DNA from: Escherichia coli
Lineage (GTDB): Bacteria; Pseudomonadota; Gammaproteobacteria; Enterobacterales; Enterobacteriaceae
Assembly: GCF_003334405.1 (NCBI RefSeq)
Contig: NZ_QOWM01000004.1
Direction: 5' to 3' (one strand)
DNA: 64,000 nt
The notes under the pieces are model-generated. The model was given only the letters and a program-made list of their open reading frames with translations, had not been told where the DNA came from and searched no databases. Position numbers and translations under genes: made by a program. Position 1 is the stretch's first letter. Each line of letters starts with the position of its first letter. Below, piece by piece: positions 1 to 58,835 of the stretch.

Positions 1-1512
1 TTTGCTCTGACCGCGCTGTATCACTTTTTATTTGTACCCCTTACCCTGGGGCTGATTTTTTTGCTGGCTATTATGGAAACCATTTACGTGGTCACCGGCA
101 AAACAATCTACCGCGATATGACGCGCTTCTGGGGTAAGCTCTTCGGTATCAATTTTGCTCTTGGCGTGGCTACCGGCCTGACCATGGAGTTTCAGTTTGG
201 TACTAACTGGTCATTCTATTCCAACTATGTGGGCGATATTTTTGGCGCACCGCTGGCGATGGAAGCATTAATGGCCTTCTTCCTCGAATCCACCTTTGTC
301 GGGCTGTTCTTCTTCGGCTGGCAACGGCTGAATAAATACCAGCACCTGCTGGTGACGTGGCTGGTGGCGTTCGGTTCAAATCTCTCTGCGTTGTGGATAT
401 TGAATGCCAACGGTTGGATGCAATACCCGACCGGTGCGCATTTTGATATCGACACCCTGCGTATGGAGATGACCAGCTTCAGCGAGCTGGTCTTTAATCC
501 GGTCAGCCAGGTGAAATTTGTGCACACCGTAATGGCGGGCTACGTGACCGGGGCCATGTTTATTATGGCGATCAGCGCCTGGTATTTACTGCGCGGACGG
601 GAGCGCGATGTCGCATTACGCTCGTTTGCCATCGGTTCCGTCTTCGGTACTCTGGCGATTATCGGTACCCTGCAACTCGGAGACAGTTCTGCGTATGAAG
701 TCGCGCAAGTACAACCGGTAAAACTGGCGGCGATGGAAGGGGAGTGGCAAACGGAACCTGCACCTGCACCGTTCCATGTGGTTGCCTGGCCGGAACAGGA
801 TCAAGAGCGTAACGCCTTTGCCCTCAAAATTCCCGCGCTGCTAGGGATCCTCGCCACTCACTCATTAGATAAACCCGTGCCGGGTCTGAAGAATTTGATG
901 GCTGAAACCTACCCACGCTTGCAACGCGGACGTATGGCCTGGCTGTTAATGCAGGAAATATCGCAAGGCAATCGTGAGCCGCATGTGTTGCAGGCATTCC
1001 GGGGACTGGAAGGTGACCTGGGCTACGGCATGTTGCTCTCCCGCTATGCGCCGGATATGAATCATGTCACAGCCGCACAGTACCAGGCGGCGATGCGTGG
1101 CGCGATACCTCAGGTTGCGCCGGTATTCTGGAGTTTCCGCATCATGGTGGGCTGTGGTTCCCTGCTGCTACTGGTGATGCTGATTGCGCTTGTCCAGACG
1201 CTGCGTGGCAAAATCGACCAGCATCGCTGGGTGCTGAAAATGGCGCTCTGGAGTTTGCCGTTGCCGTGGATTGCGATTGAAGCCGGGTGGTTTATGACCG
1301 AGTTTGGTCGTCAGCCGTGGGCGATACAGGACATCTTACCGACATACTCCGCGCACTCCGCTTTAACCACAGGACAACTGGCTTTCTCACTGATCATGAT
1401 CGTAGGGCTTTACACCCTGTTCTTAATCGCCGAAGTCTACCTGATGCAGAAATATGCCCGTCTGGGGCCGAGCGCGATGCAGAGTGAACAACCGACGCAG
1501 CAACAGGGGTAA
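1..1512 (+). CDS. appC: Cytochrome bd-II ubiquinol oxidase subunit I, 5'-truncated by the window edge
   Basis: Frame 1 is open from position 1 ([34 protein letters not shown]...) and matches the AppC/CydA-family N-terminal region; stop TAA at 1510-1512; track ORF 61..1512 is the same frame. Confidence 0.93.
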
Positions 1513-1523
1513 AGGAGAAAATC

Positions 1524-2660
1524 ATGTTTGATTATGAAACATTGCGCTTCATCTGGTGGCTGCTGATTGGCGTGATCCTGGTGGTCTTTATGATCTCCGA
1601 CGGATTTGACATGGGGATCGGCTGTCTGCTGCCGCTGGTGGCGCGTAATGATGATGAACGCCGGATAGTGATAAACAGCGTTGGTGCACACTGGGAAGGC
1701 AACCAGGTCTGGTTGATCCTCGCTGGTGGGGCATTATTTGCCGCCTGGCCCAGAGTGTATGCAGCGGCGTTTTCCGGCTTTTATGTGGCGATGATCCTGG
1801 TGCTGTGCTCACTGTTCTTCCGCCCGCTGGCCTTTGATTATCGCGGAAAAATCGCCGATGCACGCTGGCGTAAAATGTGGGACGCCGGTCTGGTCATCGG
1901 CAGTCTGGTGCCGCCGGTAGTCTTCGGTATCGCCTTCGGCAACTTGTTGCTCGGCGTGCCGTTTGCCTTCACACCGCAATTACGCGTGGAGTATCTCGGC
2001 AGCTTCTGGCAACTGCTGACGCCATTCCCTTTATTGTGCGGATTGCTCAGCCTTGGGATGGTGATTTTGCAAGGTGGCGTCTGGTTACAACTGAAAACTG
2101 TTGGTGTGATTCATCTGCGTTCACAGCTGGCGACCAAACGCGCTGCACTGTTGGTGATGCTGTGCTTTTTGCTGGCGGGTTACTGGCTGTGGGTCGGTAT
2201 TGATGGCTTTGTACTGCTCGCCCAGGATGCTAACGGTCCTTCCAATCCGTTAATGAAACTGGTGGCAGTGCTACCTGGTGCCTGGATGAATAATTTTGTC
2301 GAGTCGCCCGTTTTGTGGATCTTCCCGCTGCTGGGATTCTTCTGCCCATTGCTGACGGTGATGGCGATTTATCGTGGTCGCCCGGGTTGGGGATTTTTGA
2401 TGGCATCATTGATGCAATTTGGCGTGATTTTCACGGCAGGCATCACGCTGTTCCCCTTTGTCATGCCGTCAAGCGTGAGTCCGATCTCCAGCCTGACGTT
2501 GTGGGACAGTACTTCCAGTCAGCTGACGCTGAGCATTATGTTGGTAATCGTGCTGATATTTTTGCCCATTGTGTTGCTCTACACTCTCTGGAGCTACTAC
2601 AAAATGTGGGGGCGCATGACAACAGAAACTCTCCGCCGTAACGAAAACGAGTTGTACTAA
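1524..2660 (+). CDS. appB: Cytochrome bd-II ubiquinol oxidase subunit II
   Basis: Track ORF of 378 aa ([17 protein letters not shown]...), 11 nt after appC stop; polytopic membrane protein, length matches AppB. Confidence 0.95.
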
Positions 2661-2672
2661 GGAGCAGAAACA

Positions 2673-2765
2673 ATGTGGTATTTACTTTGGTTCGTCGGCA
2701 TTTTGTTGATGTGTTCGCTCTCCACCCTTGTGTTGGTATGGCTGGACCCGCGTCTGAAAAGTTAA
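2673..2765 (+). CDS. appX: Small membrane subunit of cytochrome bd-II oxidase (30 aa)
   Basis: ATG at 2673 preceded by GGAG; encodes MWYLLWFVGILLMCSLSTLVLVWLDPRLKS, stop TAA 2763-2765; below the ORF-track size cutoff. Confidence 0.8.
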   Translation: MWYLLWFVGILLMCSLSTLVLVWLDPRLKS

Positions 2766-2770
2766 CGAAC

Positions 2771-2806
2771 GTAGGCCTGATGCGGCGCATTAGCATCGCA
2801 TCAGGC
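2771..2806. repeat. REP-like palindrome (gcctgatgcg...cgcatcaggc), probable transcript-end structure after appCBX
   Basis: Inverted repeat read directly; resembles the REP family seen elsewhere in the window. Confidence 0.5.
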
Positions 2807-2844
2807 AATCAATAATGTCAGATATGAAAAGCGGAAACATATCG

Positions 2845-4143
2845 ATGAAAGCGATCTTAATCCCATTTTTATCTCTTCTGATTCCGTTAACCCCGCAATC
2901 TGCATTCGCTCAGAGTGAGCCGGAGCTGAAGCTGGAAAGTGTGGTGATTGTCAGTCGTCATGGTGTGCGTGCTCCAACCAAGGCCACGCAACTGATGCAG
3001 GATGTCACCCCAGACGCATGGCCAACCTGGCCGGTAAAACTGGGTTGGCTGACACCGCGCGGTGGTGAGCTAATCGCCTATCTCGGACATTACCAACGCC
3101 AGCGTCTGGTAGCCGACGGATTGCTGGCGAAAAAGGGCTGCCCGCAGTCTGGTCAGGTCGCGATTATTGCTGATGTCGACGAGCGTACCCGTAAAACAGG
3201 CGAAGCCTTCGCCGCCGGGCTGGCACCTGACTGTGCAATAACCGTACATACCCAGGCAGATACGTCCAGTCCCGATCCGTTATTTAATCCTCTAAAAACT
3301 GGCGTTTGCCAACTGGATAACGCGAACGTGACTGACGCGATCCTCAGCAGGGCAGGAGGGTCAATTGCTGACTTTACCGGGCATCGGCAAACGGCGTTTC
3401 GCGAACTGGAACGGGTGCTTAATTTTCCGCAATCAAACTTGTGCCTTAAACGTGAGAAACAGGACGAAAGCTGTTCATTAACGCAGGCATTACCATCGGA
3501 ACTCAAGGTGAGCGCCGACAATGTCTCATTAACCGGTGCGGTAAGCCTCGCATCAATGCTGACGGAGATATTTCTCCTGCAACAAGCACAGGGAATGCCG
3601 GAGCCGGGGTGGGGAAGGATCACCGATTCACACCAGTGGAACACCTTGCTAAGTTTGCATAACGCGCAATTTTATTTGCTACAACGCACGCCAGAGGTTG
3701 CCCGCAGCCGCGCCACCCCGTTATTAGATTTGATCAAGACAGCGTTGACGCCCCATCCACCGCAAAAACAGGCGTATGGTGTGACATTACCCACTTCAGT
3801 GCTGTTTATCGCCGGACACGATACTAATCTGGCAAATCTCGGCGGCGCACTGGAGCTCAACTGGACGCTTCCCGGTCAGCCGGATAACACGCCGCCAGGT
3901 GGTGAACTGGTGTTTGAACGCTGGCGTCGGCTAAGCGATAACAGCCAGTGGATTCAGGTTTCGCTGGTCTTCCAGACTTTACAGCAGATGCGTGATAAAA
4001 CGCCGCTGTCATTAAATACGCCGCCCGGAGAGGTGAAACTGACCCTGGCAGGATGTGAAGAGCGAAATGCGCAGGGCATGTGTTCGTTGGCAGGTTTTAC
4101 GCAAATCGTGAATGAAGCACGCATACCGGCGTGCAGTTTGTAA
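2845..4143 (+). CDS. appA: Periplasmic pH 2.5 acid phosphatase / phytase (histidine acid phosphatase)
   Basis: Track ORF 2815..4143; start moved to internal ATG giving MKAILIPFLSLLIPLTPQSAFA signal peptide and 432 aa; RHGVRAP histidine-phosphatase motif present. Confidence 0.92.
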   Translation: MKAILIPFLSLLIPLTPQSAFAQSEPELKLESVVIVSRHGVRAPTKATQLMQDVTPDAWPTWPVKLGWLTPRGGELIAYLGHYQRQRLVADGLLAKKGCPQSGQVAIIADVDERTRKTGEAFAAGLAPDCAITVHTQADTSSPDPLFNPLKTGVCQLDNANVTDAILSRAGGSIADFTGHRQTAFRELERVLNFPQSNLCLKREKQDESCSLTQALPSELKVSADNVSLTGAVSLASMLTEIFLLQQAQGMPEPGWGRITDSHQWNTLLSLHNAQFYLLQRTPEVARSRATPLLDLIKTALTPHPPQKQAYGVTLPTSVLFIAGHDTNLANLGGALELNWTLPGQPDNTPPGGELVFERWRRLSDNSQWIQVSLVFQTLQQMRDKTPLSLNTPPGEVKLTLAGCEERNAQGMCSLAGFTQIVNEARIPACSL

Positions 4144-51317: not shown

Positions 51318-53741
51318 TTAAAATCTGAATGTCATATCGAATTCAACGTATAAGTTGTGTTCTCTGTCACCGTCATAAGGTCGTTTTTCCCAGCGTAGCG
51401 TTGCGCCAGCATCAATCACGTCATTCCAACTAATGCGTTGCCCGTAGCCGAGTTGGGTGACGACATCCGTGCCATAATGTTTTTGCCAGGAGGCACCAAC
51501 ACCTGCGCTGAATATTTGCTCCCAGCTATTTTCATAGCTTCGCCATAACAAATGGCTTGCCTCAAATGCCGGAACAATATCGAACGTTTTTATAGGGTTG
51601 TAGTATGGGGTATCGTGTTCTGTATTTTGTTCGTAATACAGACTGGGTAGGAAATCGACAATCAAATATGGTGAAGACCAGATGCGTTCCTGACCCTCAA
51701 GTGAGACTTCATGACGCTGGTTACTGTCGGAAAAATCAGTGAAAGCCCAGGAGACACCGTACTTACGCCGCTCATTTTGATACCAGCGAACATAAGCCTG
51801 AGCACTGTTGCCTGTAACACCATTTTTCATTGCCCGTAATGGAACGCGGTGAGAGAGGCGTTCCAGTTGCGAACCAATACGCCAGTTATCATTAAAATCA
51901 TACCAGCCAGACAGGCGCGCGCCGGGTTTATGCTCATGATTGAAAACGCGTTCAGCGTACTCTGCCTCGAGCCAGATATTACGTGACCGCCACTCAACAC
52001 CCGCAAGCCAGTCGCGAACAATCCCTTTTCCTTCGCTAAATTGTCCATCGGCATAACCGAATCCAGCAAAACCGCGCCAGTTATCCTTCAGCGGTGGTGA
52101 ATAAACGATGGTGGTTAAGTCGACATCATGTTTACCACTATCCGGGCCTTCGGCATCAATTCCTGTTGAGCCAGCGATACGAAGCTCTGCAAGATTATGT
52201 ACATCAACCGCACGTTTTAATCGTACAACGCCGGGATCTTGCGGTTCACGTTCGACAACATCGTGCGTTAAGACAGCTGCCTGCTGCCATTCTTGTAACG
52301 TTAATGCTGTCCAGGCTTGTTCAACCTCCAGATTAATATTACGTGGCTCGATCACTTCTGCTTTTTTTAATTCATTTTCTGCTGCACGAGGCCAACCGCG
52401 GGCTTGTAACACACTCGCGTAATCAATGCGCAGTCCCTGATTTCCTGGTGCGTTATAAGCAAGCTCTCTGGCTGTCATTTCAGCCTGAGGAAGATCATTA
52501 CTATATTTTGCTACGGTTGAGAGAAACGAATGCCCCTGTAACCAGGTATCATTCGGGATGCTCGTAGGCGTGCCCATTAACCGAAGGAAAGGCGGCGAAG
52601 TATTAATGGTATGTTGGGTGACAGTTAGCGCGCCCGGATAATTTTCACTCTCCAGGTGGCTGTAAAAGAGATCCGCAAGTTCTTCATCGGATAAATCCGG
52701 GGCAATGGTCTCCTTGTGATAAAAGAGCTCGGTCATTATTGACTGTGCTTTTTTCGGCTGATGATCTTTGAGATAAGCCGATGCAACCCAATATTGCCCC
52801 CAGGGCGGAATAATTTGCCCCGTCTTTTTTAATCGCTGATAGTGAGAAATAACGTCTTTATAACGATCGCGAGTTAATAACGCGCCAAGATGATCAACCT
52901 GAATACGCTGGTACTGGGCAGTGCGGTCTGGGTTATCGTGCCACAGAATTTCTAATGCAGCGTATTGGGCGAGGGCGCGATCGGCAATGGCATAACGTTC
53001 ACTTTCACTGCGCGTAGGCATAAACGACAGTCTGACCAGTTCGGCATGAATATCAGCGCGAATATCTGGCGTTAAATTGGCATCGTCAATCGCGGCAGCA
53101 AGTTGATTATTACGTAATGCCTGCACGTATTCTGTGGGATATTGTTGCGTAGATGCATTTTCAGGTAATGACTCTGTCATCGCCCGTAATTCATCCTGAT
53201 GACGCCCCGCCAGTTTATAGATATAGGCTTCTGCGAGTAAATTGGCTTTGTCCGGTGCTCCAGAGTTAAGCTGCTTAAGTTTAACCAGCGCAGTATCATA
53301 GTGACCAGCATCTGCCAGGGTTAAAATTTGTCCCCGTTGATAATCCTTATTTTGCGGCTCCAGAGAGAGCGCCTTTTGCCACAGTGTAAGCGAGTTTTGC
53401 CATTGTTGCAGGTTACGATAAGCGACGGCGACAGCTGCATAACCACGCGCTGGTAATTGCTGATGACGGTAGCGGTTGTAAACGGTAATAACCTGTTTAT
53501 CTTGCCCGGCCCATAAGGCAATCTGTAACCAGTCAGCAATTTGGTTATTGCTGAGTGCTGATTTTAGTGCAAACCATGACAAAGCTGGCTGAGTATTACC
53601 CTTGCGAGCTTCAATAATCAATGCATCATAGGCGTTATTAACAGCACTCTTCGCCGCGGGACTCGCTGCTAAAAATGCGGCAGTAAGAAGTTTCAAAGCC
53701 CATTTGGTTTTCGGGCACCTTTTTCTGCTACTTGAATACAT
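51318..53741 (-). CDS. pgaA: PGA outer-membrane porin with TPR domain
   Basis: Track ORF of 807 aa with signal peptide. Confidence 0.95.
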   Translation of the reverse strand: MYSSSRKRCPKTKWALKLLTAAFLAASPAAKSAVNNAYDALIIEARKGNTQPALSWFALKSALSNNQIADWLQIALWAGQDKQVITVYNRYRHQQLPARGYAAVAVAYRNLQQWQNSLTLWQKALSLEPQNKDYQRGQILTLADAGHYDTALVKLKQLNSGAPDKANLLAEAYIYKLAGRHQDELRAMTESLPENASTQQYPTEYVQALRNNQLAAAIDDANLTPDIRADIHAELVRLSFMPTRSESERYAIADRALAQYAALEILWHDNPDRTAQYQRIQVDHLGALLTRDRYKDVISHYQRLKKTGQIIPPWGQYWVASAYLKDHQPKKAQSIMTELFYHKETIAPDLSDEELADLFYSHLESENYPGALTVTQHTINTSPPFLRLMGTPTSIPNDTWLQGHSFLSTVAKYSNDLPQAEMTARELAYNAPGNQGLRIDYASVLQARGWPRAAENELKKAEVIEPRNINLEVEQAWTALTLQEWQQAAVLTHDVVEREPQDPGVVRLKRAVDVHNLAELRIAGSTGIDAEGPDSGKHDVDLTTIVYSPPLKDNWRGFAGFGYADGQFSEGKGIVRDWLAGVEWRSRNIWLEAEYAERVFNHEHKPGARLSGWYDFNDNWRIGSQLERLSHRVPLRAMKNGVTGNSAQAYVRWYQNERRKYGVSWAFTDFSDSNQRHEVSLEGQERIWSSPYLIVDFLPSLYYEQNTEHDTPYYNPIKTFDIVPAFEASHLLWRSYENSWEQIFSAGVGASWQKHYGTDVVTQLGYGQRISWNDVIDAGATLRWEKRPYDGDREHNLYVEFDMTFRF

Positions 53742-53975
53742 CCTGTATTACTCCATGTATTGCCAAAATCTCTCTCTGTATCTAATTACAGGTAACTGAA
53801 AAGAAAGATATTTTTGCACCTCATAATCCGTTATTAAACGCGGAAGAGAGACGTGAATTGTTGATGATGAGAAGAAGAAATGATGAGCAGAGTGTCCATA
53901 TAAAATCCTTTTCTCGCCCGAAAATCCATTCCAATGATGAGGATCTTCAGGAATACGGCATAAATCCCAATGCCT
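53742..53975 (-). promoter_or_regulatory. Long untranslated leader of pgaA, proposed CsrA-binding region (extent approximate)
   Basis: More than 500 bp AT-rich non-coding DNA between pgaA and dgcT; GGA within the SD context (minus-strand atacatGGAgtaatacagg); the 234-nt leader length is recalled from the literature. Confidence 0.45.
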
Positions 53976-54327
53976 TTTTCAAAATAAATTAGGATTAAAA
54001 TAATTAAATCAGTAAATTCCGATGCATGATTTCGGATTTTTCGAAAGTCCTGATGAAAGGCTGCGCTACGGCACTCACGGATTTAATTGTTATTCCTAAT
54101 GTATCTATGAATTAATGTTTTATAAGGATTTTCTATAACCATTTATAAGTATTTTCAAGCCTGGCTTGTTGCAAACAATGTATAAAGCACTTAGGCAATA
54201 ATAATTACATTCAGCAACTATCATCATCGGTATTGTTTGTGGGCGGAATTTCATATTGACAACAGTACAGTTCTTATATCTATTAATAATAGAAAGGGAT
54301 CTACAACCTACAGATTGGTGTAGCTTT

Positions 54328-55686
54328 ATGGAAAAAGACTATTTGAGAATTAGTAGTACTGTATTAGTGAGCTTATTGTTTGGGCTTGCTTTGGTTTTGG
54401 TGAATAGTTGGTTTAATCAGCCAGGCGTTGAGGAAGTTGTTCCACGATCAACCTATCTGATGGTAATGATTGCTTTATTTTTTATCGATACTGTTGCATT
54501 TATTTTTATGCAGTTGTATTTCATTTATGACCGTAGGCAATTTTCAAACTGTGTACTTAGTTTGGCTTTTCTGAGTTGTTTGATTTACTTTGTTATAACC
54601 GTCATTATCATTCAGCAAATTATTGAGGAGCGTTTGACAAGCAGTGTTGTCCAAAATGACATTGCAATCTATTATTTGTTTCGTCAGATGAGTTTGTGCA
54701 TATTAATATTTCTGGCATTGGTGAATAAAGTTAGTGAAAACACAAAACAGCGCAATTTATTTTCCAAAAAAATGACTTTGTGCATAAGTTTGTTTTTTGT
54801 TTTTGGGGGGCCGATAGTTGCTCACATACTTTCTAGTCATTATGAGAGCTACAATTTACACATTGCCGAGTTAACCAATGAAAATGGTCAGGTGGTTTGG
54901 AAAGCCTCATATGTTACCATAATGATTTTCATGTGGTTAACCTTGCTTTCGGTTAATCTATACTTTAATGGTTTACGCTATGATATCTGGAATGGAGTGA
55001 CGGTGATTGCTTTTTGTGCCGTACTGTACAATATCTCTCTGTTATTTATGAGCAGGTATAGCGTGTCCACTTGGTATATTAGTCGCACTATTGAAGTAGT
55101 CAGTAAGTTAACCGTTATGGTAATATTTATGTGCCATATATTCAGTGCGCTACGAGTAACAAAGAACATTGCACATCGCGATCCCTTAACCAATATATTT
55201 AACAGAAATTATTTTTTTAATGAACTGACAGTTCAATCAGCATCAGCCCAAAAAACGCCTTATTGCGTCATGATTATGGATATCGACCACTTCAAAAAAG
55301 TCAACGACACCTGGGGGCATCCGGTTGGCGATCAGGTGATAAAAACAGTGGTGAATATCATTGGGAAAAGCATACGACCAGATGACCTTTTAGCGCGCGT
55401 CGGCGGCGAAGAGTTTGGCGTCTTGCTGACGGACATCGATACTGAACGTGCGAAAGCTTTAGCGGAAAGGATTCGGGAAAATGTTGAGCGTTTAACTGGC
55501 GATAATCCTGAATACGCTATACCACAAAAAGTGACGATTAGTATTGGCGCTGTTGTGACTCAGGAAAATGCGTTAAACCCAAATGAGATCTATCGACTGG
55601 CTGATAACGCACTTTACGAGGCGAAAGAGACCGGGCGTAATAAGGTGGTTGTGAGGGATGTGGTGAATTTTTGTGAGTCACCATAA
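54328..55686 (+). CDS. dgcT: Membrane-anchored diguanylate cyclase (GGDEF domain)
   Basis: Track ORF 54256..55686; ATG at 54328 gives 452 aa MEKDYLRISSTVLVSLLFGLAL; GGEEF active-site motif (RVGGEEFGVLL). Confidence 0.9.
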   Translation: MEKDYLRISSTVLVSLLFGLALVLVNSWFNQPGVEEVVPRSTYLMVMIALFFIDTVAFIFMQLYFIYDRRQFSNCVLSLAFLSCLIYFVITVIIIQQIIEERLTSSVVQNDIAIYYLFRQMSLCILIFLALVNKVSENTKQRNLFSKKMTLCISLFFVFGGPIVAHILSSHYESYNLHIAELTNENGQVVWKASYVTIMIFMWLTLLSVNLYFNGLRYDIWNGVTVIAFCAVLYNISLLFMSRYSVSTWYISRTIEVVSKLTVMVIFMCHIFSALRVTKNIAHRDPLTNIFNRNYFFNELTVQSASAQKTPYCVMIMDIDHFKKVNDTWGHPVGDQVIKTVVNIIGKSIRPDDLLARVGGEEFGVLLTDIDTERAKALAERIRENVERLTGDNPEYAIPQKVTISIGAVVTQENALNPNEIYRLADNALYEAKETGRNKVVVRDVVNFCESP

Positions 55687-55726
55687 AGCGGCATTTTGAT
55701 CCTACCCACGTAATATGGACACAGGC

Positions 55727-56593
55727 CTAAGCGAGGTTCTTGTTTTCAAATTGTTCCGGACTGAGGCCGCCACACCAACTGTGCCGCCGCCACCGATTGT
55801 AATCACATTCGATATAATTAAACACCGTTGCCCGCATTATTTCCCGGCTGATAAAGTGTTCTCCATGGATACATTCCACTTTCAGCGAATGAAAGAAGCT
55901 TTCCACGCAGGCATTATCGTAGCAGCAACCTTTTGCGCTCATACTTCCACGCAGATTATGCCGCTTCAGTTGCGCCTGATAATCTGCTGAACAGTACTGG
56001 CCTCCACGGTCCGTGTGAACGATAACGTTCCGGGGCCTCTTACGCCGCCACAGCGCCATCTGCAGGGCATCGCAGGCCAGTTGCGCCGTCATGCGTGGCG
56101 ACATTGACCAGCCAATAACGGCACGTGACCACAGGTCAATGACCACTGCCAGATACAGCCAGCCTTCATCTGTACGTAAGTACGTGATGTCTCCTGCCCA
56201 CTTCTGGTTCGGGCCACTGGCGTAAAAATCCTGCTCCAACAGATTTTCTGACACAGGCAGGCCGTGTGCGCGGTAGCTGACCGGGCTGAACTTCCGGGAG
56301 GCCTTTGCCCTCAGTCCCTGACGGCGCAGGCTTGCCGCCACGGTTTTTACGTTAAAGGGGTAACCCTGAGCACGCAGTTCATCCGTCAGGCGTGGGGCAC
56401 CGTAACGCTGTTTTGACCGGGTAAAAGCCGCGAGGACAACGCTGTCGCAGTGTTGGCGGAACTGCTGACGCGTGCTTATCCTTGTCCGCCGCTGACACCA
56501 CGTATACCAGCCGCTGCGGGCCACCCGGAGCACGCGGCACATTGCTTTGATGCTGAACTCAGCCTGATGTTTTTCAATAAAGACATACTTCAT
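55727..56593 (-). CDS. insF: IS3 transposase OrfB (DDE integrase domain)
   Basis: Track ORF of 288 aa, [30 protein letters not shown]. Confidence 0.93.
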
Positions 56594-56889
56594 TTCAGGC
56601 GCTTCGCGAAGTATGTCGCGGCCTTTTGGAGGATAGCCAGCTCTTCATCCCGTTCTGCCAGCTGGCGTTTGAGACGTGCAATCTCGGTAGACATCTCCAG
56701 TTCACGTTCAGAAGACGTCTGCTGATTTTGCTGTTTACTGCGCCAGTTGTAGAGTTGTGATTCATACAGGCTGAGTTCACGGGCTGCGGCAGTAACACCG
56801 ATGCGTTCAGCAAGCTTCAGGGCTTCACTGCGAAATTCAGGCGAATGCTGTTTACGGGGTTTTTTACTGGTTGATACTGTTTTTGTCAT
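56590..56889 (-). CDS. insE: IS3 transposase OrfA (HTH)
   Basis: Track ORF 56590..56898; ATG at 56889 gives 99 aa [32 protein letters not shown]; 4-nt overlap with orfB typical of programmed -1 frameshifting. Confidence 0.93.
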
Positions 56890-56954
56890 GTGAGTCACCT
56901 CTGACTGAGAGTTTACTCACTTAGCCGCGTGTCCACTATTGCTGGGTAAGATCA

Positions 56955-58281: not shown

Positions 58282-58432
58282 GGAAGTGATAGGAAGTGAC
58301 CAGATAATACATATATGTTCTGTACTCTCTTGCGCATTTTGATTGTTGACTGAGTAACCAGACAGTTGATGTGCACGATTTCCCCTCGCCCTAACAGACG
58401 TGGGCGGGGGCACCCGGTGTGTGCAATATACG

Positions 58433-58460
58433 AAAAAAAAGCCCGTACTTTCGTACGAGC
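58433..58460 (-). terminator. Intrinsic terminator copy in repeat unit 1 (minus-strand GCUCGUAC-GAAA-GUACGGGC followed by U8)
   Basis: Hairpin 58441-58460 and A8 on plus strand 58433-58440, read from sequence. Confidence 0.6.
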
Positions 58461-58613
58461 TCTTCTTTAAATATGGCGGTGAGGGGGGGATTGACTCGCT
58501 TCGCTCGCCCTGCGGGCAGCCCGCTCACTGCGTTCACGGTCTGTCCAACTGGCTGTCGCCAGTTGTCGAACCCCGGTCGGGGCTTCTCATCCCCCCGGTG
58601 TGTGCAATATACG

Positions 58614-58641
58614 AAAAAAAAGCCCGTACTTTCGTACGAGC
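58614..58641 (-). terminator. Intrinsic terminator copy in repeat unit 2
   Basis: Identical hairpin plus U8, 181 bp from the unit-1 copy. Confidence 0.6.
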
Positions 58642-58794
58642 TCTTCTTTAAATATGGCGGTGAGGGGGGGATTGACTCGCTTCGCTCGCCCTGCGGGCAG
58701 CCCGCTCACTGCGTTCACGGTCTGTCCAACTGGCTGTCGCCAGTTGTCGAACCCCGGTCGGGGCTTCTCATCCCCCCGGTGTGTGCAATATACG

Positions 58795-58822
58795 AAAAAA
58801 AAGCCCGTACTTTCGTACGAGC
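58795..58822 (-). terminator. Intrinsic terminator of serX (hairpin plus U8, 13 nt after the tRNA CCA end)
   Basis: Hairpin 58803-58822 and A8 on plus strand 58795-58802; GNRA (GAAA) loop. Confidence 0.75.
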
Positions 58823-58835
58823 TCTTCTTTAAATA

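What the first reader, a model, noticed from the sequence alone, without database searches (positions are those of the whole stretch)
53742..54327. Large AT-rich divergent control region between pgaA and dgcT
Seen directly: 586 bp of non-coding, very AT-rich DNA separate the divergent starts of pgaA and dgcT. Established knowledge: pgaA has a long leader bound by CsrA at GGA motifs, and dgcT expression is also CsrA-controlled. The region therefore co-ordinates the polysaccharide synthesis genes and a c-di-GMP synthase from one intergenic segment.
Basis: partly seen in the sequence, partly recalled or inferred. Interest (0 to 1): 0.25.

Follow-up and report, generated by a model that had tools for sequence, protein, structure and literature searches.

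The report
Known pgaA–dgcT control region of E. coli
This is the well-studied gap between the E. coli biofilm-polysaccharide operon pgaABCD and the c-di-GMP synthase gene dgcT. Its sequence is identical to K-12 MG1655, so the finding is correct but ordinary.

Summary
pgaA (51318-53741, minus strand) and dgcT (54328-55686, plus strand) diverge across a 586-bp gap at 53742-54327. The gap is 34.0% GC against 50.4% for the window and is identical to E. coli K-12 MG1655.

The gap is made of separate modules:
- The 234-nt pgaA leader (53742-53975). It holds 8 GGA motifs (2.5 expected), the published +61..+107 hairpin, a C-rich rut tract and a published CsrA CLIP-seq peak.
- The pgaA promoter and upstream activator block. 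A -124..+234 fragment (to about 54099) suffices for regulation, and 53990-54058 is up to 100% conserved in a 73%-identical allele.
- About 155 bp of poorly conserved AT-rich spacer.
- A conserved TTGACA and a short 35-nt dgcT leader (transcription start 54293) with one GGA and a hairpin over the ribosome-binding site.

Published ribosome profiling shows dgcT strongly derepressed in a csrA mutant.

Only pgaA has a long leader. The co-ordination comes from CsrA acting in trans on two separate mRNAs whose start sites lie 318 bp apart, not from a shared cis element. All of this is already known, so interest is low.

Minor leads: a 21-codon upstream ORF that stays open in both allele lineages, and a conserved hairpin at +24..+59.

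The parts
51318..53741 (-). pgaA coding sequence (807 aa), first gene of pgaABCD
   Evidence: ORF. NF007468 at 1457 bits, above the cut-off of 1043. RefSeq annotation.
53742..53975 (-). pgaA 5' untranslated leader, 234 nt (+1 at 53975, uncertain by 1-3 nt)
   Evidence: The 234-nt UTR is stated in PMC4052769. TSS-seq gives 1091745(-), a 233-nt UTR, equal to window 53974. GGA motifs lie at +9, +44, +49, +68, +79, +147, +222 and +233.
53741..53754 (-). CAUGGAGUAAUACAGGAUG: two GGA motifs (+222, +233) over the Shine-Dalgarno sequence and start codon. These are the CsrA sites for translational repression.
   Evidence: Sequence. The two sites over the SD and AUG are required for repression. They are 100% conserved in the divergent allele. 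Probability of being unpaired is 0.71 and 0.78.
53869..53915 (-). Imperfect hairpin +61..+107. The left arm (53895-53915) carries GGA +68 and +79. [quoted passage not shown] It acts as an anti-terminator that CsrA opens.
   Evidence: The hairpin is reproduced in the minimum-free-energy fold of the whole leader and of the isolated segment, -7.9 kcal/mol. It is weaker (-4.0 kcal/mol) in the divergent allele, which also lacks GGA +79.
53836..53894 (-). C-rich, G-poor tract +82..+140 (21 C and 4 G in 59 nt) holding two of the leader's three CUCAUCAU copies (+89, +105; the third is at +35): the Rho utilisation (rut) region
   Evidence: Composition. The rut assignment and in vitro Rho termination are in PMC4052769.
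53840..53958 (-). Published in vivo CsrA CLIP-seq peak (peak_111; NC_000913.3 1092388-1092506)
   Evidence: PMC5694010 supplementary file 3. The peak sequence matches the window leader from about +18 to +136.
53834..53899 (-). 21-codon upstream ORF (MDTLLIISSSHHQQFTSLFRV*). Its SD is the AAGGA of the first CsrA site and its AUG overlaps the second. It runs across the rut tract.
   Evidence: the ORF stays open with the same start and stop in all five sequences. The two K-12 versus B2 differences are synonymous. The 11 differences to the divergent allele fall 4/3/4 across the three codon positions. [quoted passage not shown]
53916..53952 (-). Hairpin +24..+59, with GGA +44 and +49 in its apical part and 3' arm
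   Evidence: -14.8 kcal/mol in K-12 and -17.8 kcal/mol in the divergent allele despite many substitutions. The formal pair count is inconclusive.
53957..53974 (-). 5'-terminal hairpin +2..+19 with GGGA in an 8-nt loop
   Evidence: probability unpaired 0.86. The stem and the GGGA are kept in the divergent allele. It is not among the sites described in the papers I could read.
53976..54099 (-). pgaA promoter and upstream activating region (-1..-124). Candidate -10 is TATTTT at 53981-53986, and there is no good -35.
   Evidence: The -124..+234 fragment confers NhaR- and CsrA-dependent regulation in Salmonella. [quoted passage not shown] The consensus scan misses this promoter, which fits dependence on an activator.
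53990..54058 (.). Most conserved non-coding block (-15..-85 of pgaA). It contains the dyad TCCGA-N9-TCGGA (54018-54036) and a T-N11-A box, TCGGATTTTTCGA (54032-54044). I infer that this is the NhaR site.
   Evidence: 80-100% identity to an allele that is 54-61% identical at four-fold codon positions. Four variable bases lie in the dyad spacer. The NhaR assignment is an inference: the footprinting paper was not available.
54100..54255 (.). AT-rich spacer. It is mostly unconstrained, with two small conserved islands (54100-54130 and 54135-54158) that overlap a 15-nt direct repeat (54119-54133 and 54142-54156).
   Evidence: Sliding identity is 35-60% outside the islands. The repeat is family D1. 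In strain 99-3311 the similarity to the window ends at about 54105 and a different gene follows.
54256..54292 (+). dgcT core promoter. A perfect -35 TTGACA lies at 54256-54261. The -10 candidates are TCTATT (54279-54284, 17-bp spacer) and TATTAA (54281-54286, 19-bp spacer).
   Evidence: Sequence. TTGACA and TTATATCTATTAATA are conserved in the divergent allele. The position fits the transcription start implied by the 35-nt UTR. The promoter assignment is an inference.
54293..54327 (+). dgcT 5' leader, 35 nt. It holds a single A(N)GGA (GGA at 54297-54299), then a hairpin (54301-54308 paired with 54317-54323) that pairs the GGUG Shine-Dalgarno sequence (54317-54320). A second GGA overlaps the start codon (AUGGAA).
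   Evidence: The UTR sequence AAAGGGATC... is used in PMC6028588 supplementary file 2. A single CsrA site near the SD is stated. OmrB is predicted to pair at -12..+2.
54328..55686 (+). dgcT (ycdT) coding sequence, 452 aa, with a membrane N-terminal domain and a GGDEF domain
   Evidence: TIGR00254 GGDEF at residues 280-443. RefSeq annotation. One record labels the protein 'MASE4 domain-containing'.

Best explanation
The gap is the known regulatory region of E. coli pgaABCD and dgcT. It consists of two independent cis modules placed back to back, and the RNA-binding protein CsrA controls both in trans.

Module 1 spans about 53742-54099.
- An activator-dependent promoter, with NhaR binding in the conserved -15..-85 block, starts the pgaABCD transcript at about 53975.
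- The 234-nt leader is regulated twice by CsrA. Binding at GGA +68 and +79 opens the +61..+107 hairpin, exposes the C-rich rut tract and lets Rho terminate transcription.

Module 2 spans about 54256-54327.
- A TTGACA-type promoter starts dgcT at 54293.
- CsrA binds the single AAGGGAU at the 5' end of the 35-nt leader, and possibly also AUGGAA at the start codon. This lowers translation and mRNA level.
- A small hairpin already pairs the weak GGUG ribosome-binding site.

When CsrA is titrated away, both the PGA machinery and a c-di-GMP synthase rise together. c-di-GMP in turn activates PgaCD.

What is shown: the sequence features, the folds, the conservation pattern and the published experiments.

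What is inferred: the NhaR site, the dgcT -10/-35 elements and the role of the dgcT hairpin.
For: - Identity: the gap is identical to MG1655.
- pgaA start site: a 234-nt UTR in the literature and a TSS-seq start at 233 nt.
- GGA enrichment in the leader: 8 against 2.5 expected.
- The published hairpin is recovered by folding, and the rut tract composition fits.
- The CLIP-seq peak maps to window 53840-53958.
- The -124..+234 fragment is sufficient for regulation.
- Conservation: blocks at the SD/AUG, leader +40..+140, promoter -15..-85 and the dgcT promoter stand out against a neutral-like 54-61% background.
- dgcT: a 35-nt UTR with a single A(N)GGA, and derepression in a csrA mutant (ribosome footprints log2 4.43, RNA log2 2.83, translation efficiency log2 1.36).
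- Multi-tier model of CsrA acting on pgaA, nhaR and c-di-GMP genes.
Against: - No CLIP-seq peak was recorded on ycdT in the dataset I could read. Direct binding to dgcT therefore rests on Jonas et al. 2008, which I could cite only second-hand.
- The dgcT start site is taken from the UTR used in a modelling paper, not from primary mapping data that I saw. One TSS-seq dataset shows only a 2-read start 691 nt upstream, inside pgaA.
- GGA +79 and +147 are lost in the divergent allele, so the exact site set is not universal.
- Neither leader folds better than shuffled sequence (z-scores 0.10 and about 0). Covariation is uninformative with only three distinct lineages.
Confidence: 0.9

Rival explanations
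1. The gap is a truly shared bidirectional control region. One set of protein-binding sites in the middle of the gap sets transcription of both pgaABCD and dgcT.
For: The genes are divergent neighbours in both deep allele lineages. Two small conserved islands and a 15-nt direct repeat lie in the spacer. An SrsR genomic-SELEX peak is reported at 1,092,430, equal to window 53882.
Against: The start sites are 318 bp apart. The -124..+234 fragment already gives regulated pgaA expression. Most of 54060-54255 is at or below the neutral identity level. Strain 99-3311 keeps the pgaA side only up to about 54105, with a different gene beyond.
Confidence: 0.07
2. The AT-richness mainly reflects horizontally acquired, nucleoid-protein (H-NS) silenced DNA. 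The size of the gap has no specific regulatory meaning beyond the known pgaA leader.
For: The low GC extends through two-thirds of dgcT (34.9%). Full-length DgcT relatives were found only in Escherichia. An IS3 element abuts dgcT. About 1120 of 5426 genomes lack the locus. IS1 insertion and replacement variants exist.
Against: This reading is compatible with the best explanation rather than exclusive of it. No H-NS binding data were examined. Strongly conserved non-coding blocks show specific constraint.
Confidence: 0.3
3. CsrA controls Rho termination in the pgaA leader through translation of the 21-codon upstream ORF, whose ribosomes would mask the rut tract, rather than only through hairpin remodelling.
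For: The first CsrA site is a good SD (AAGGA, 6-nt spacing) and the second overlaps the AUG. The ORF covers the rut tract and stays open in both lineages. In the divergent allele the AUG is kept while the GGA of the second site is lost.
Against: [quoted passage not shown] Substitutions to the divergent allele show no bias towards third codon positions (4/3/4). The conservation could equally be due to the RNA elements themselves.
Confidence: 0.08

Closest known systems
E. coli K-12 pgaABCD 5' leader and promoter (Wang et al. 2005; Goller et al. 2006; Figueroa-Bossi et al. 2014)
   Same: The sequence is identical to MG1655. It has the same 234-nt leader, the same GGA sites over the SD and AUG, the same +61..+107 hairpin and rut tract, and the same CLIP-seq peak.
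   Different: Nothing differs in this window. In a 73%-identical Escherichia allele, GGA +79 and +147 are absent and the hairpin is weaker.
ycdT/dgcT and ydeH/dgcZ as CsrA-repressed diguanylate cyclase mRNAs (Jonas et al. 2008)
   Same: A short leader (35 nt for ycdT, 29 nt for ydeH) with A(N)GGA near the ribosome-binding site, and strong derepression in a csrA mutant.
   Different: ycdT has a single consensus site at the very 5' end, whereas ydeH has several around the SD. No CLIP-seq peak was recorded on ycdT in Potts et al. 2017.
Classical divergent promoter regions with shared operators (for example overlapping back-to-back promoters)
   Same: Two divergently transcribed, functionally linked genes share one gap.
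   Different: The start sites are 318 bp apart, the modules are separable, and the DNA between them is poorly conserved. The shared regulator acts on RNA, not on a common DNA site.

Membership tests
pgaA CsrA/Rho-regulated leader | Transcribed 5' UTR of about 234 nt upstream of pgaA | tested here: met
   The sequence is identical to MG1655. The published UTR is 234 nt and the TSS-seq start is 233 nt upstream.
pgaA CsrA/Rho-regulated leader | Multiple GGA motifs, including two over the Shine-Dalgarno sequence and start codon | tested here: met
   Eight GGA against 2.5 expected. GGA +222 and +233 are accessible in the fold.
pgaA CsrA/Rho-regulated leader | Hairpin +61..+107 with CsrA sites in the left arm and a C-rich rut tract in the right arm | tested here: met
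   The minimum-free-energy fold reproduces it. The tract +81..+130 is 33-35% C and 3% G.
pgaA CsrA/Rho-regulated leader | CsrA binding in vivo | tested here: met
   The published CLIP-seq peak sequence maps to window 53840-53958. This is a literature result mapped here, not a new experiment.
pgaA CsrA/Rho-regulated leader | Rho-dependent termination stimulated by CsrA | not testable with these tools
   Shown in vitro and in vivo in PMC4052769.
CsrA-repressed dgcT (ycdT) mRNA | A(N)GGA in a short leader near the ribosome-binding site | tested here: met
   AAGGGAU lies at 54295-54301 in the 35-nt UTR. GGA is retained in the divergent allele.
CsrA-repressed dgcT (ycdT) mRNA | Direct CsrA binding and derepression in a csrA mutant | not testable with these tools
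   Derepression is documented. Binding is cited second-hand from Jonas et al. 2008. There is no CLIP-seq peak in Potts et al. 2017.
NhaR (LysR-type) activated promoter | LysR-type T-N11-A or dyad box upstream of a promoter with a weak -35 | tested here: inconclusive
   TCGGATTTTTCGA and TCCGA-N9-TCGGA lie in the most conserved block. The footprint paper was not available, so the assignment is an inference.
Shared bidirectional promoter/operator region | Closely spaced or overlapping divergent promoters that depend on common DNA sites | tested here: not met
   The start sites are 318 bp apart. The pgaA module is sufficient on its own. The spacer is unconstrained.
Any curated RNA family (Rfam 15) | Match at or near the gathering score | tested here: not met
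   Only three chance-level hits (E-values 3.7-9.1), all far below their thresholds.

The most novel reading that the evidence does not exclude
The pgaA leader may hold more than the published model describes.

- A 21-codon upstream ORF stays open in two allele lineages that are only 73% identical. Its ribosome-binding site and start codon coincide with the two upstream CsrA sites.
- A hairpin at +24..+59 carrying two further GGA motifs is also conserved.

If the upstream ORF is translated in native E. coli, CsrA would gate Rho termination partly by repressing leader-peptide translation.

Separately, the two conserved islands and the direct repeat in the spacer could be sites for an unidentified transcription factor of dgcT.
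Probability: 0.1. Interest if true: 0.35.

Novelty: already known. Interest (0 to 1): 0.08.

Why it matters
The region is a textbook case of multi-tier post-transcriptional control of biofilm formation. CsrA acts on transcript elongation, translation and stability of pgaABCD. It also acts on the activator NhaR and on c-di-GMP synthases. Re-identifying this region in a K-12-like genome adds nothing new.

The modest added value here is a coordinate-level map of the modules. There is also a phylogenetic footprint from a divergent Escherichia allele, which shows which published elements are under constraint and which are not.

Tried and rejected
- **Rfam scan** of 53300-54800 at E-value up to 10 gave only chance hits.
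- **Consensus promoter and terminator scan** found neither real promoter. It found one weak terminator-like hairpin on the plus strand, which is simply the complement of the pgaA 5' hairpin.
- **Inverted-repeat search** with seeds of at least 6 found nothing.
- **Folding energies** of both leaders are no better than shuffles.
- **Pair counting** on five sequences (three lineages) was uninformative: one pair with a double change.
- **Genome-collection scan** with DgcT found full-length relatives only in Escherichia, so no wider comparison of the gap was possible.
- **Primary papers not held:** Wang 2005, Goller 2006, Jonas 2008 and Thomason 2015. Several supplements were empty or truncated.
- **Two mechanical 44-aa ORFs in the gap** (53858-53992 plus strand; 54120-54254 minus strand) were rejected. 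The first is disrupted by a 1-nt indel in the divergent allele, and the second lies in the indel-rich spacer.
- **A whole-window GGA listing** served only to give the background frequency.

Full report
**Observation**

The window holds an 807-codon ORF at 51318..53741 on the minus strand and a 452-codon ORF from the ATG at 54328 to 55686 on the plus strand.
- The first ORF is PgaA (NF007468, 1457 bits against a cut-off of 1043), and PgaB lies downstream of it.
- The second ORF carries a C-terminal GGDEF domain. RefSeq calls it dgcT.

It is 34.0% GC against 50.4% for the window. That places it in the lowest 1.4% of 586-bp windows. The low GC continues through the first 810 nt of dgcT (34.9%), so AT-richness marks the whole dgcT side of the locus and not only the non-coding DNA.

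The gap is identical to E. coli K-12 MG1655. Window coordinate equals NC_000913.3 coordinate minus 1,038,548. The surrounding 12.4 kb differs by 3 substitutions. An 851-bp query covering the gap and its flanks matches 4306 of 5426 complete E. coli genomes. No feature is annotated inside the gap, and nothing there matches Rfam.

**The pgaA side**

Figueroa-Bossi et al. (PMC4052769) describe a 234-nt 5' UTR with six CsrA sites mapped by Wang et al. 2005. They also describe a hairpin-like structure at +61..+107. Its left arm carries the two promoter-proximal CsrA sites and its right arm is the 5' half of a rut site. CsrA binding opens the hairpin and allows Rho-dependent termination. [quoted passage not shown]

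A TSS-seq dataset (PMC3415461) places the pgaA start 233 nt upstream of the ATG. This puts +1 at window 53974-53975.

On that transcript I find GGA at +9, +44, +49, +68, +79, +147, +222 and +233. Shuffles give 2.5 +/- 1.4 (p about 0.005).

Folding reproduces the published +61..+107 hairpin, both within the whole leader and in isolation (-7.9 kcal/mol). The leader as a whole folds no better than shuffled sequence (z-score 0.10).

The tract +81..+130 is 33-35% C and 3% G. The leader contains the motif CUCAUCAU three times, at +35, +89 and +105, so two copies fall in or near this tract. This composition is what a rut site looks like.

The CsrA CLIP-seq peak published by Potts et al. (PMC5694010, peak_111, 1092388-1092506) maps to window 53840-53958. 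That covers the hairpin and the rut tract.

The GGAs at the Shine-Dalgarno sequence and AUG are predicted to be largely unpaired (0.71 and 0.78). GGA +68 and +79 are mostly paired, as the remodelling model requires.

The fragment from -124 to +234 was enough to give NhaR- and CsrA-dependent regulation when moved into Salmonella. The functional pgaA module therefore ends near window 54099.

**The dgcT side**

Reviews and modelling papers list ycdT (dgcT) as a directly bound CsrA target with only a single consensus site near the Shine-Dalgarno sequence.

The supplementary data of Leistra et al. (PMC6028588) give the ycdT mRNA as its 5' UTR plus 100 nt of coding sequence. The sequence begins AAAGGGATCTACAACC, with the start codon at position 36. 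This gives a 35-nt leader and a start site at window 54293.

A perfect TTGACA lies at 54256-54261. Candidate -10 hexamers lie 17 or 19 bp downstream of it.

The leader has one A(N)GGA at its 5' end (GGA at 54297-54299). A small hairpin follows and pairs the weak GGUG ribosome-binding site. A second GGA overlaps the start codon (AUGGAA). OmrB is reported to pair at -12..+2.

In the csrA mutant of Potts et al., ycdT ribosome footprints rise by log2 4.43, RNA by log2 2.83 and translation efficiency by log2 1.36. No CLIP-seq peak was called on it.

One TSS-seq dataset has only a 2-read plus-strand start inside pgaA assigned to ycdT. I regard this as noise.

**Comparative evidence**

Seventy-seven E. 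coli records carry an allele of the gap in the 60-80% identity band; the one examined is 72.8% identical.

I fetched one of these (strain YZ22PE68) and two B2-type alleles. The genome-collection scan with DgcT returned one more copy of the divergent allele. It returned no full-length relative outside Escherichia.

In the divergent lineage PgaA is 80% identical and DgcT 77% identical at the protein level. Third positions of four-fold-type codons are 54-61% identical, which I use as a rough neutral level.

Against that background the gap splits into conserved and unconstrained parts.

| Window coordinates | What it is | Identity to the divergent allele |
|---|---|---|
| 53725-53775 | pgaA start, Shine-Dalgarno sequence and its two GGAs | about 100% |
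| 53836-53935 | leader +40..+140 | 75-90% |
| 53990-54058 | pgaA promoter -15..-85 | 80-100% |
| 54100-54130 and 54135-54158 | two small islands in the spacer | 75-85% |
| 54256-54300 | dgcT promoter and leader start | 65-85% |
| 53776-53835, 53936-53960, 54060-54100, 54160-54255 | the rest | 30-60%, with indels |

The most conserved block contains the dyad TCCGA-N9-TCGGA and a T-N11-A box. Four variable bases sit inside the dyad spacer. I infer that this is the NhaR site, but I could not read the footprinting paper.

GGA +79 and +147 are lost in the divergent allele. GGA +9, +44/+49, +68, +222 and +233 are kept. The +61..+107 hairpin is weaker there (-4.0 kcal/mol), while a hairpin at +24..+59 is kept or strengthened. 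Formal pair counting on five sequences is uninformative.

**Natural variants separate the two sides**

- Strain 99-3311 matches the window only up to about 54105, and a different gene (a frameshifted EAL-domain gene) follows.
- Strain EC2 has an IS1 element inserted in the pgaA leader at about +18..+27.

**Interpretation**

The gap is two independent cis modules at opposite ends, with start sites 318 bp apart. About 155 bp of largely unconstrained AT-rich DNA separates them. Co-ordination of PGA synthesis with c-di-GMP production comes from CsrA acting in trans on both mRNAs and on nhaR. It also comes from c-di-GMP activating PgaCD. It does not come from a shared DNA element.

The qualifications are that only pgaA has a long leader and that 'one segment' should not be read as 'one element'. 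Everything essential here is published, so the finding is already known.

**Limits**

- I could not read Wang 2005, Goller 2006 or Jonas 2008. The exact footprinted CsrA and NhaR sites and the primary dgcT start mapping are therefore taken second-hand or inferred.
- H-NS occupancy was not examined.

Noticed in passing
window 53834-53899 (-): A 21-codon upstream ORF in the pgaA leader (MDTLLIISSSHHQQFTSLFRV*) stays open with the same start and stop in alleles only 73% identical. Its SD and AUG coincide with the two upstream CsrA sites. In the divergent allele the AUG is kept while the overlapping GGA is lost. [quoted passage not shown]
   Followed up: partly
window 53916-53952 (-) and 53957-53974 (-): Two further leader hairpins are conserved between the allele lineages. 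One is at +24..+59, with GGA +44 and +49. The other is at +2..+19, with GGGA in its loop. Neither is among the CsrA sites described in the papers I could read, although the CLIP-seq peak covers the first.
   Followed up: partly
window 54119-54133 and 54142-54156 (+): A 15-nt direct repeat (TTTATAAGGATTTTC and TTTATAAGTATTTTC, 23 bp apart) overlaps the only two conserved islands in the otherwise unconstrained spacer. It could be an unassigned protein-binding site.
   Followed up: no
L007 (E. coli EC2), equivalent to window ~53948-53958: An IS1 element is inserted inside the pgaA 5' leader at about +18..+27, flanked by a duplicated CAGGAATACGG. It separates the promoter from the CsrA and Rho control elements.
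   Followed up: partly
L006 (E. coli 99-3311), breakpoint equivalent to window ~54105: The pgaA promoter and leader are retained, but the dgcT side is replaced by a frameshifted EAL-domain gene and a FidL-like gene. The breakpoint lies close to the -124 limit of the functional pgaA fragment.
   Followed up: no
window 58413-58854: A 181-bp tandem repeat upstream of serX has 2.4 copies here and 3.4 copies in MG1655. This, plus 3 substitutions in 12.4 kb, shows that the window is a K-12-like strain but not MG1655 itself.
   Followed up: yes
window ~53638 (+), inside pgaA: One TSS-seq dataset lists a 2-read plus-strand start antisense to pgaA, assigned to ycdT with a 691-nt UTR. A weak terminator-like hairpin on the plus strand at 53957-53974 would end such a transcript over the pgaA leader. 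This is probably noise.
   Followed up: no
E. coli genome collection: About 1120 of 5426 complete E. coli genomes give no match to the pgaA-dgcT junction. Full-length DgcT relatives were found only in Escherichia. The locus is accessory, has low GC and is flanked by IS3 in K-12 (window ~55697-56954).
   Followed up: no
window 25200-26460: This is the only other stretch of the window as AT-rich as the pgaA-dgcT gap (586-bp windows at or below 34% GC). It was not examined.
   Followed up: no
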